From the NCBI RefSeq assembly GCF_003790525.1, contig NZ_CP033635.1: a DNA stretch of 64,000 bases; one strand, written 5' to 3'. Every line of letters begins with the position of its first letter. Position 1 is the stretch's first letter. The position numbers were made by a program. This document shows positions 9,001 to 12,000 of the stretch, one piece after another. This stretch comes from Escherichia coli (GTDB taxonomy: Bacteria > Pseudomonadota > Gammaproteobacteria > Enterobacterales > Enterobacteriaceae).

Positions 9001-12000
9001 AATCATAAGGATAATCATAATATTGTTTAATCAAAACCTTGAATATATCGACACAGGAGACCAGGGAGCTTTTGATATCCTCTGATAACTGATTGTTTTT
9101 AACAGTATTAAGTATGCTTTGTTGCGTATATGGCATCAAATTATTGTGCGGAGCTTTTAATGATATCATCGCGATCTCTCTTAAATAAAAATAAACGTCG
9201 CAGATAATAAAGCCCTGATTAAACCAGGCACTATCAGAAATCGCTCATAACTAACGTGTGAAGTATTGTGTACTGGAGGGAGTTAATTTAACAATTTGAA
9301 TTTACGTTATAGGTTTTACTGCTACTTTGATATTATTTCGCTCTCCTTAACTAAAAAGTTAAGTGGAGAGCGAAGTTAATATGTTAAACCACAGGATATT
9401 TATTAATTGTTTCAGTCTGTTAGTGTGCGATTATCGATAACAAAACGATATTTCACATCACCTCGCAGCATTCGCTCATAGGCTTCATTAATTTGATCGG
9501 CCCGAATCATCTCTATATCAGCCACGATGTCATGTTCGGCGCAAAAATCGAGCATCTCCTGTGTTTCTGGAATGCCGCCAATCATAGAGCCGGCTATCGC
9601 ACGGCGTTTCATGATCAGGTTGAAAACTTCCGGTGATTTATGCGGTGTCGCAGGCGCACCAACCAGCGTCATGGTGCCATCACGCTTCAGCAAGGTGGTA
9701 AAATCGTCGAGATTATGTGGCGCAGCTACTGTATTCAAAATGAAATCGAAACTCTTGAGATGAGCCGCCATCTCATCGGCATTGCGTGAGTTAACAACTT
9801 CATCGGCCCCCAGGGCTTTTGCCGCTTCGCGTTTTGCCTCAGAAGTGGTAAATGCCACCACATGCGCCCCCATCGCGTGGGCCAGCTTAATCCCCATATG
9901 TCCCAGACCGCCGATGCCGACCACGCCCACTTTTTTTCCCGGCCCGGCCTGCCAGTGACGTAGCGGCGAATACGTGGTGATCCCTGCACACAACAAAGGT
10001 GCCACCGCCGCCAGCTGCTCTTGCGGGTGACGAATACGCAGAACATATCGCTCATGAACGACGATCTGTTGTGAGTAGCCGCCCAGAGTATGGCCCGGTT
10101 CGTCCGGCGTCGGCGAGTTATAGGTGCCGGTCATGTGATCACAGTAGTTTTCCAGCCCGTCTTCACACTCTTCGCAATGTTTACAACTGTCGACAATGCA
10201 GCCGACACCGACCAGATCGCCCGGCGCATGTTTTTCTACCTGATCACCAACGGCTACCACACGCCCCACAATTTCATGACCCGGCACACAGGGGTAAACC
10301 GTCCCCGCCCACTCGGAACGGACCTGGTGGATATCGGAATGGCAGACGCCACAGTAAGCGATTTCGATTTTGACATCATGCGGTCCCGGTTCACGCCGGG
10401 TGATATCCATCGGTTCCAGCGGTTGTTTAGCGGAATATGCACCAACAGCTTTGATCTTCATTGTGTTTACTCCTGATTAGCTATGTGTATTTGGCGATGC
10501 CTGATATGTCATCGCGGCAAAACGCGTCCATTGAATATAGCCAATATTTAAACCACCCGATCCAGCCCCAACATGCCGCGAGCCTGAATGAAACAGAGCA
10601 GCAACGTTCCCCATAAGGCGAGCGCCTATAAGTGTGATATTTGCTATCCGTAAAAGACAAAAATCGGCAAAACTGATGATATTTTCACGTAGACAAATAG
10701 TTATCTACACAACGTTGGTAATGACTCCAACTTATTGATAGTGTTTTATGTTCAGATAATGCCCGATGACTTTGTCATGCAGCTCCACCGATTTTGAGAA
10801 CGACAGCGACTTCCGTCCCAGCCGTGCCAGGTGCTGCCTCAGATTCAGGTTATGCCGCTCAATTCGCTGCGTATATCGCTTGCTGATTACGTGCAGCTTT
10901 CCCTTCAGGCGGGATTCATACAGCGGCCAGCCATCCGTCATCCATATCACCACGTCAAAGGGTGACAGCAGGCTCATAAGACGCCCCAGCGTCGCCATCG
11001 TGCGTTCACCGAATACGTGCGCAACAACCGTCTTCCGGAGCCTGTCATACGCGTAAAACAGCCAGCGCTGGCGCGATTTAGCCCCGACATAGCCCCACTG
11101 TTCGTCCATTTCCGCACAGACGATGACGTCACTGCCCGGCTGTATGCGCGAGGTTACCGACTGCGGCCTGAGTTTTTTAAGTGACGTAAAATCGTGTTGA
11201 GGCCAACGCCCATAATGCGGGCTGTTGCCCGGCATCCAACGCCATTCATGGCCATATCAATGATTTTCTGGTGCGTACCGGGTTGAGAAGCGGTGTAAGT
11301 GAACTGCAGTTGCCATGTTTTACGGCAGTGAGAGCAGAGATAGCGCTGATGTCCGGCGGTGCTTTTGCCGTTACGCACCACCCCGTCAGTAGCTGAACAG
11401 GAGGGACAGCTGATAGAAACAGAAGCCACTGGAGCACCTCAAAAACACCATCATACACTAAATCAGTAAGTTGGCAGCATCACCCACAACGTCAATAAGG
11501 GCATATTCTTCAAAGATAATGTCCATTTCTGCCGACACACTCATACTCAGGCCGCCCCACTCCCTGGGGCTTAAATCTCTTACTGTTCACCGTTGCAGAT
11601 ATATCAAGTTCGTATCAACCTGCCACACTCCCCCACACCAGTTGCCCTTTATGGAACGTTGCGGTTCTCGGCGAGATACGCGCCACCGCCTCGGCGGAAC
11701 AGGAGGCGTCCACCAGCACAAAGCTGGCGTCATCCTGCGCTTTGGGCCACACGCGCTCGCCTTTTTCGTTGAGCGGCAATACATCGCCAGTGGCTAAAAA
11801 CAGCGAACGGGACAAATTCTGTTCGTTAGGACGAATATAGAGCTGCGCGTAGAGATTGGCTTTTTCCAGCATGTCGCCCAGGCCGTAGGGAGACCAGTGG
11901 TCGATAACGCTGTCGGTGCCGGTCATGACTTTTACGCCTTTGTCGTGCAACTGTTTGAGCGGCATATGCAGCGTGTCAATCGGCACCGTCGAGGCGATAG

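What the first reader, a model, noticed from the sequence alone, without database searches (positions are those of the whole stretch)
9338..9373. Long imperfect hairpin just downstream of yahK
TCGCTCTCCTTAACT-AAAAA-GTTAAGTGGAGAGCGA forms a stem of about 15 bp with one small bulge, roughly 40 nt past the yahK stop. It lacks the U-tract of a classic intrinsic terminator, so it may be an RNA-stability element, a processing site or a protein-binding palindrome.
Basis: seen in the sequence. Interest (0 to 1): 0.25.

Follow-up and report, generated by a model that had tools for sequence, protein, structure and literature searches.

The report
Protective stem-loop ending yahK mRNA
The hairpin is real and marks the end of the yahK messenger RNA in E. 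coli, most likely as a plug against degradation from the tail end, which is an ordinary and already described kind of element.

Summary
The hairpin at 9338-9373 is real. It has 15 base pairs (9 + 6) with a 2-nt bulge, or 16 pairs counting 9337/9374. Predicted energy is -19.4 kcal/mol on the yahK-sense (minus) strand, z = -5.9 against shuffles. It starts 38 nt after the yahK stop and has no U-tract.

It is single-copy and occurs in 5088 of 5426 complete E. coli genomes. It also persists in three inspected strains that lack the downstream gene yahL.

Published Term-seq data for E. coli K-12 (Adams et al. 2021) place the only RNA 3' ends of the yahK-yahL region at window 9332 and 9334. These lie 3-6 nt past the stem, on the yahK strand. 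The same study calls a Rho termination region 36 nt further downstream. That point sits in a C-rich, G-poor stretch.

This matches the class described by Dar and Sorek (2018): U-less stem-loops that define and protect the 3' ends of Rho-terminated transcripts.

Best reading (about 0.65): Rho terminates in the spacer, exonucleases trim back, and the hairpin stops them.

Rivals are a weak intrinsic terminator, a protein-binding palindrome, an element upstream of yahL, and a neutral quasi-palindrome.

Three alleles exist, and all fold strongly. Conservation alone is not statistically decisive. The finding is ordinary and of low interest.

The parts
9412..10461 (-). yahK coding sequence (NADPH-dependent aldehyde reductase), stop codon at 9412-9414
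   Evidence: ORF list; annotated as yahK in matching E. coli records; 98-99% identical to proteins named YahK
9374..9411 (-). 38-nt A/U-rich single-stranded part of the yahK 3' UTR, between the stop codon and the stem-loop
9338..9373 (-). The stem-loop: 9 bp, 2-nt bulge, 6 bp, loop UUUU; -19.4 kcal/mol; extendable by one U-A pair to 9337-9374
   Evidence: present in 5088 of 5426 E. coli genomes, one copy each
9332..9334 (-). Mapped steady-state RNA 3' ends. K-12 344013(+) in LB at OD 2.0 equals window 9332. K-12 344011(+), on the third sheet (taken to be M63), equals window 9334. The RNA ends ...GAGCGAAAUAAU-3' or ...GAGCGAAAUA-3'
   Evidence: Adams et al. 2021, PMC7815308, Supplementary file 1; the 61-nt sequences given there match the window exactly
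9253..9331 (-). C-rich, G-poor stretch downstream of the 3' end (16-18 C against 7 G per 78-nt window for windows starting at 9330-9340). It is a candidate Rho loading region and contains the published Rho-termination-region peak (K-12 344049, about window 9296)
   Evidence: C/G 2.3-2.6; Adams et al. Supplementary file 2, Rho score 3.6, p = 1.8e-5

Best explanation
The hairpin is the 3'-terminal stem-loop of the yahK mRNA. RNA polymerase transcribes through it, because there is no U-tract to release the transcript. Rho then loads on the untranslated, C-rich and G-poor spacer just downstream and terminates transcription diffusely before or within yahL. 3'-to-5' exonucleases (PNPase and RNase II in the published model) chew the tail back until the 15-16 bp stem stops them. 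This leaves a discrete end 3-6 nt past the stem and shields yahK mRNA from further decay.

Shown: the structure, its conservation in E. coli, the position of the 3' ends, the missing U-tract, the C over G bias, and a bicyclomycin-sensitive region nearby.

Inferred: that Rho, rather than weak intrinsic release, ends transcription; that exonucleases create the observed end; and that the stem prolongs mRNA life.
For: Stable fold, far better than shuffles.

The only Term-seq 3' ends listed on either strand between K-12 coordinates 329541 and 345390 (LB OD 2.0 sheet; from 329307 on the third sheet) are at 344013 and 344011 (+). These equal window 9332 and 9334, 3-6 nt past the stem, on the yahK strand, and were found in two growth conditions.

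A Rho termination region is called at 344049 (+), 36 nt downstream. Reads in the downstream window rise 24 to 225 with bicyclomycin, against 32 to 83 upstream.

The tail has a T-tract score of 0.5-0.8, against 3.8-5.4 for three reference U-rich tails, and the terminator scan does not call it.

C/G is 2.3-2.6 immediately downstream.

Dar and Sorek 2018 (PMC6061677) describe this same combination as the rule for Rho-dependent transcripts: a stable stem, no U-rich tail, C over G downstream, and trimming by PNPase and RNase II.

The hairpin stays next to yahK in three inspected strains that lack yahL.

All three common alleles keep a strong fold, -18.7 to -25.8 kcal/mol.
Against: The Rho score uses 800-nt windows. 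Its rise could come from de-repressed transcription starting inside the A/T-rich yahL region rather than from read-through out of yahK.

No 3' end was listed for LB at OD 0.4, the only condition with per-site Rho and intrinsic-terminator scores, so this site was never scored directly.

No data on exonuclease mutants or mRNA half-life were available for this gene.

Conservation of the stem relative to the flanks is not significant: 1 event observed against 3.5 expected, P about 0.13.

No covariation test is possible.
Confidence: 0.65

Rival explanations
1. A weak, non-canonical intrinsic terminator. The strong stem alone, with a poor tail (AAAUAAUAU), makes a fraction of polymerases release a few nucleotides past the stem. 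Rho only mops up the read-through.
For: The stem-loop is in the energy range of real terminators. It sits where the yahK homologue of Enterobacter sp. BIGb0383 has a canonical terminator (stem starting about 46 nt after the stop), and the Salmonella bongori homologue has a stem-loop with a partly U-rich tail close to the stop. The 3' ends are discrete and close to the stem.
Against: Only 3 U in the first 9 tail nucleotides, none of them next to the stem. T-tract score is 0.5-0.8. The terminator scan does not call it. The ends lie 3-6 nt from the stem, rather than the 7-9 nt that I recall as usual for intrinsic release. A bicyclomycin-sensitive region is called 36 nt downstream.
Confidence: 0.15
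2. A neutral quasi-palindrome of the DNA. It arose and is reshaped by replication slippage or template switching, and it blocks exonucleases only as a by-product, without selection for that role.
For: All allele differences sit at the single irregular spot of one arm (CA deleted, TC deleted, or TC versus CA). One allele is a perfect 16-bp palindrome. Conservation relative to the flanks is not significant.
Against: This does not contradict the mapped 3' ends; it only denies selection. The two helices (7-9 bp basal, 6 bp apical) are the same in the three alleles that make up 5066 of 5090 matching records. Homologues in other genera carry their own, unrelated stem-loops after yahK, which suggests a recurring need.
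Confidence: 0.1
3. A protein-binding DNA palindrome, that is, an operator or nucleoid-protein site acting on yahL or yahK.
For: Dyad symmetry. The spacer is A/T-rich. yahL is listed as a predicted CRP target in a genomic SELEX study.
Against: A 36-bp dyad with 15-16 contiguous complementary positions is much longer than typical operators (from general knowledge). It lies 170-200 bp upstream of the yahL start and is retained where yahL is absent. I saw no CRP-like motif in the hairpin (by eye only). The sigma-factor SELEX peaks reported for this locus fall inside yahL, not at the hairpin. The 2-nt indels change the spacing of the half-sites, which a dimeric binder would tolerate poorly.
Confidence: 0.04
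4. A regulatory element of a long yahL 5' leader, or a gate for read-through from yahK into yahL and yahM.
For: Adams et al. list the 3' ends as lying 163-165 nt upstream of the yahL ORF. The downstream genes are strongly affected by bicyclomycin.
Against: The hairpin is kept in three inspected strains without yahL. I found no alternative (antiterminator-like) pairing in the folds of the wider region. I had no evidence for a promoter upstream of the hairpin other than that of yahK.
Confidence: 0.05

Closest known systems
[quoted passage not shown]
   Same: A stable stem-loop immediately upstream of a precise steady-state 3' end; no U-rich tail; C over G bias just downstream; a bicyclomycin-sensitive region nearby; not a REP element, like three quarters of that class.
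   Different: Whether yahK is in their own table could not be checked, because the supplement is not held. Dependence on PNPase or RNase II is untested for this gene.
Intrinsic (Rho-independent) terminators
   Same: Position shortly after a stop codon, stem length and folding energy. Two homologues in other genera have terminator-like hairpins close to the stop.
   Different: No U-tract next to the stem (AAAUAAUAU) and no A-tract upstream. Not called by the consensus scan.
REP (repetitive extragenic palindromic) elements acting as mRNA 3' stabilisers
   Same: An extragenic palindrome that stops 3' exonucleases downstream of a gene.
   Different: Single copy per genome, no resemblance to the REP consensus as I recall it, and only about 40% G+C.

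Membership tests
Protective 3' stem-loop of a Rho-dependent transcript (Dar and Sorek class) | Energetically stable stem-loop immediately upstream of the dominant steady-state RNA 3' end | tested here: met
   -19.4 kcal/mol, z = -5.9. Published 3' ends at window 9332 and 9334, 3-6 nt past the stem.
Protective 3' stem-loop of a Rho-dependent transcript (Dar and Sorek class) | Tail not uridine-rich | tested here: met
   Tail AAAUAAUAUCAAAG; T-tract score 0.5-0.8 against 3.8-5.4 for three reference U-rich tails.
Protective 3' stem-loop of a Rho-dependent transcript (Dar and Sorek class) | C over G enrichment (rut-like sequence) just downstream of the stem-loop | tested here: met
   78-nt windows starting at 9340-9320 have C/G of 2.1-2.6.
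Protective 3' stem-loop of a Rho-dependent transcript (Dar and Sorek class) | Read-through past the site when Rho is inhibited | tested here: inconclusive
   A published Rho termination region peaks 36 nt downstream (score 3.6, p = 1.8e-5). It uses 800-nt windows and cannot separate read-through from new initiation in yahL.
Protective 3' stem-loop of a Rho-dependent transcript (Dar and Sorek class) | Longer 3' UTR in pnp or rnb exonuclease mutants | not testable with these tools
   No such data could be reached. The Dar and Sorek supplement is not held.
Intrinsic terminator | G+C-rich stem-loop | tested here: met
   9 bp basal helix with 6 G-C pairs, plus a 6 bp apical helix.
Intrinsic terminator | U-tract (about 5 or more U in 8) directly after the stem | tested here: not met
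   the first three nucleotides after the stem are A.
REP element | Many dispersed copies per genome sharing a consensus | tested here: not met
   Median of one place per genome; second places occur where the allele is palindromic. One match in the window.
Any curated RNA family (Rfam 15) | Covariance-model match | tested here: not met
   No match at 8000-11000 even at E up to 10, apart from one chance snoRNA hit elsewhere.

The most novel reading that the evidence does not exclude
The stem-loop and the Rho-dependent spacer might together form a conditional gate. Stress that weakens Rho would then let yahK transcription run into yahL and yahM, which a published study reports as restricted to E. 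coli and Shigella. The allele series (bulged, internal-loop, perfect palindrome) would tune that gate or yahK mRNA life between lineages.
Probability: 0.06. Interest if true: 0.35.

Novelty: new member of a known kind. Interest (0 to 1): 0.1.

Why it matters
It matters little beyond annotation. The result gives yahK a defined mRNA 3' end and a plausible termination mode. It also adds one clear example to the known class of U-less protective stem-loops. yahK is often over-expressed or deleted in metabolic engineering of aldehydes and alcohols. People who move the gene may want to know that its native 3' stem-loop is probably a stabiliser rather than a terminator.

Tried and rejected
Rfam scan of 8000-11000 at a permissive threshold found nothing relevant.

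A repeat-family or MITE idea was rejected, because the element is single-copy in the window and in genomes.

Cross-species covariation could not be done. The genome-contig scan with YahK returned mostly distant Proteobacteria, with one Enterobacter, and no Escherichia relatives. The hairpin motif is absent from all of those loci. A protein search followed by four contig look-ups gave a 91%-identical unnamed homologue, Salmonella bongori, Pseudescherichia vulneris and Escherichia sp. ESNIH1. All have different neighbours and unrelated 3' structures.

A conservation test of the hairpin against the spacer, between the two main E. coli haplotypes, was not significant.

Supplements of four other papers gave nothing. 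Dar and Sorek 2018 and Choe et al. 2022 are not held. TERMITe 2025 and SMRT-Cappable-seq 2018 do not mention yahK. The SEnd-seq paper (Ju et al. 2019) is not held.

A CRP site in the hairpin was considered because yahL is a SELEX-predicted CRP target. I saw no CRP-like motif in the hairpin by eye.

The small terminator-like stem at 9214-9228 folds no better than shuffles. My third fold used wrong coordinates and should be ignored.

Full report
**The observation**

The 36-nt sequence is at window 9338-9373 as described. yahK is on the minus strand (ORF 9412..10461). It is annotated as the NADPH-dependent aldehyde reductase YahK in matching E. coli records. The transcript therefore carries the reverse complement.

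As RNA it folds into 9 bp, a 2-nt bulge (CA, in the 5' arm), 6 bp and a UUUU loop. Energy is -19.4 kcal/mol. Dinucleotide shuffles give -5.4 +/- 2.4, and none of 200 folds as well. A further U-A pair extends it to 9337-9374.

The hairpin starts 38 nt after the stop codon. The tail is AAAUAAUAUCAAAG. Its T-tract score is 0.5-0.8. The terminator tail of the Enterobacter yahK homologue scores 3.8, and two idealised U-rich tails score 5.0-5.4. The consensus terminator scan does not call it.

Stable 40-nt hairpins are not rare in the window: 45 fold at -18 kcal/mol or below on the plus strand. This one belongs to a smaller set with low G+C and a long continuous stem. Several of that set look like terminators, though I did not map them onto genes.

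**Context and distribution**

The window is E. coli. The hairpin lies in the 242-bp spacer between yahK and yahL (8354..9169, minus strand).

- The spacer is found in 5109 of 5426 complete E. coli genomes.
- The hairpin with short flanks is found in 5088 genomes, at one place per genome.
- It is not a repeat family.
- It matches no Rfam family.

Three alleles account for 5066 of 5090 matching records:

| Allele | Records | Energy (kcal/mol) |
|---|---|---|
| Bulged form, seen here and in K-12 | 3951 | -20.4 |
| Perfect 16-bp palindrome (CA missing) | 404 + 164 | -25.8 |
| TC missing, giving a 2x2 internal loop | 547 | -18.7 |

All differences fall at the single irregular spot of the 5' arm. 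The basal and apical helices are the same in all three.

The three genomes I inspected with the non-bulged alleles (Ecol_656, G749, PMV-1) lack yahL. They keep the spacer and the hairpin next to yahK. The element therefore belongs with yahK, not yahL.

Conservation of the hairpin relative to the rest of the spacer is suggestive but not significant. One event was observed against 3.5 expected (P about 0.13).

**Other genera**

YahK homologues of 85-91% identity were examined. They include Enterobacter sp., Salmonella bongori, Pseudescherichia vulneris, Escherichia sp. ESNIH1 and one unnamed contig. All sit among different neighbours, and none carries this hairpin.

- Enterobacter has a canonical terminator whose stem starts about 46 nt after the stop.
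- S. bongori has a stem-loop with a partly U-rich tail.
- The Pseudescherichia and ESNIH1 loci have what look like REP-type palindromes.

Unrelated 3' stem-loops thus recur after yahK in four of the five flanks read. No covariation test of this particular stem is possible.

**Transcript ends**

Adams et al. 2021 (eLife 10:e62438, PMC7815308) mapped RNA 3' ends in E. coli MG1655 by Term-seq.

- Their curated table lists a 3' end at 344013 (+) in LB at OD 2.0.
- It lists another at 344011 (+) on the third sheet, which I take to be M63.
- The 61-nt sequences printed with these entries match the window exactly at 9322-9382 and 9324-9384 on the minus strand.
- The ends are therefore at window 9332 and 9334.
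- The RNA ends ...GGAGAGCGAAAUAAU-3' or ...GCGAAAUA-3', which is 3-6 nt past the stem.

In the LB OD 2.0 table no other 3' end is listed, on either strand, between 329541 and 345390. On the third sheet the gap runs from 329307. The hairpin end is therefore the only detected end of the yahK-yahL region, and it is on the yahK strand. No end is listed for LB at OD 0.4.

The same paper's map of Rho termination regions comes from direct RNA sequencing with and without bicyclomycin.

- It has a peak at 344049 (+), 36 nt downstream of the 3' end, at about window 9296.
- Downstream reads rise from 24 to 225, and upstream reads from 32 to 83.
- The Rho score is 3.6 and p = 1.8e-5.
- The peak lies inside a C-rich, G-poor stretch. 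The 78-nt windows starting at 9340-9320 have 16-18 C against 7-8 G.

**Mechanism**

[quoted passage not shown] They report precise steady-state 3' ends immediately after stable stem-loops, with no uridine-rich tail and a C over G bias downstream. They give evidence that PNPase and RNase II trim the diffuse primary ends back to the stem.

I therefore read the hairpin as the protective 3'-terminal stem-loop of yahK mRNA. Polymerase reads through it. Rho terminates in or beyond the spacer. Exonucleases trim back to the stem.

What is shown:
- the structure;
- the position of the 3' ends;
- the missing U-tract;
- the base-composition bias;
- a bicyclomycin-sensitive region close by.

What is inferred:
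- that Rho ends the yahK transcript, since the 800-nt windows cannot exclude new initiation in A/T-rich yahL;
- that exonucleases make the end;
- that the stem prolongs mRNA life.

Confidence is about 0.65.

**Rivals**

- **Weak intrinsic terminator (0.15).** This fits the position and the stem, but not the tail or the bicyclomycin signal.
- **Neutral quasi-palindrome (0.10).** It would be reshaped by slippage or template switching. This fits the allele pattern and denies selection, but it does not deny the mapped end.
- **Protein-binding dyad (0.04).** No positive evidence supports it. Sigma-factor SELEX peaks reported for this locus fall inside yahL. yahL is only a predicted CRP target, and I saw no CRP-like motif in the hairpin by eye.
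- **yahL leader element (0.05).** This is hard to reconcile with retention of the hairpin in strains without yahL.

**Verdict**

This is a real, conserved and ordinary element: a new example of a known kind. Its 3' end and the nearby Rho region are already in published tables, although nobody appears to have commented on them. Interest is low.

Noticed in passing
window 8354-9175 (yahL) compared with L002, L005, L006: yahL is a presence/absence polymorphism. Three genomes (Ecol_656, G749, PMV-1) run yahK, spacer with hairpin, then yahM. Homology to the window breaks 4-5 nt before the yahL start codon. A published study reports YahL as restricted to E. coli and Shigella (PMC11057252). It has no Pfam family above threshold.
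   Followed up: partly
window about 10716-11480: An IS1 copy (insA and insB ORFs 10732-11429) sits between yahJ (11615-12997) and yahK, about 255 bp upstream of the yahK start. It is absent from BW25113 and from strain 2014C-3075, whose yahK-yahL spacer is otherwise identical to the window.
   Followed up: partly
L007 1486-1530 (E. coli SCAID WND1-2022): An IS1-linked deletion has removed yahK and the 5' arm of the hairpin. The junction falls at the hairpin loop, so only the 3' arm remains next to the IS1 end.
   Followed up: no
window 9362-9367 (5' arm of the hairpin): Three alleles differ only here: bulged (TCTCCAC), perfect (TCTCC) and internal loop (TCCAC). The pattern looks like slippage or template switching at a quasi-palindrome.
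   Followed up: partly
window 9269-9279: An 11-nt indel removes part of the C-rich stretch (CCTCCAGTACA) in the Ecol_656 haplotype, which lacks yahL. It lies inside the candidate Rho loading region.
   Followed up: no
window 9214-9228, minus strand: A small 6-bp stem followed by GCUUUAUUAU, 45 nt upstream of the yahL start. One pair reads C-G here, C.A in K-12 and U-A in Ecol_656. The fold is no better than shuffles (z = -1.4).
   Followed up: partly
window about 7955 and inside yahM (7695-7970): Adams et al. 2021 list a 3' end 14 nt upstream of yahM (K-12 345390) and a strong Rho region inside yahM (345585, score 6.2). They also built a yahM reporter. This neighbourhood appears to be heavily Rho-controlled.
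   Followed up: no
L009-L087, L090: YahK is 78-83% identical in several Pseudomonas and betaproteobacterial genomes, almost as close as in other enterobacteria (85-88%), and the inspected enterobacterial loci have unrelated neighbours. This suggests horizontal spread. The Pseudescherichia locus carries a second alcohol-dehydrogenase-family gene 1.8 kb away.
   Followed up: no
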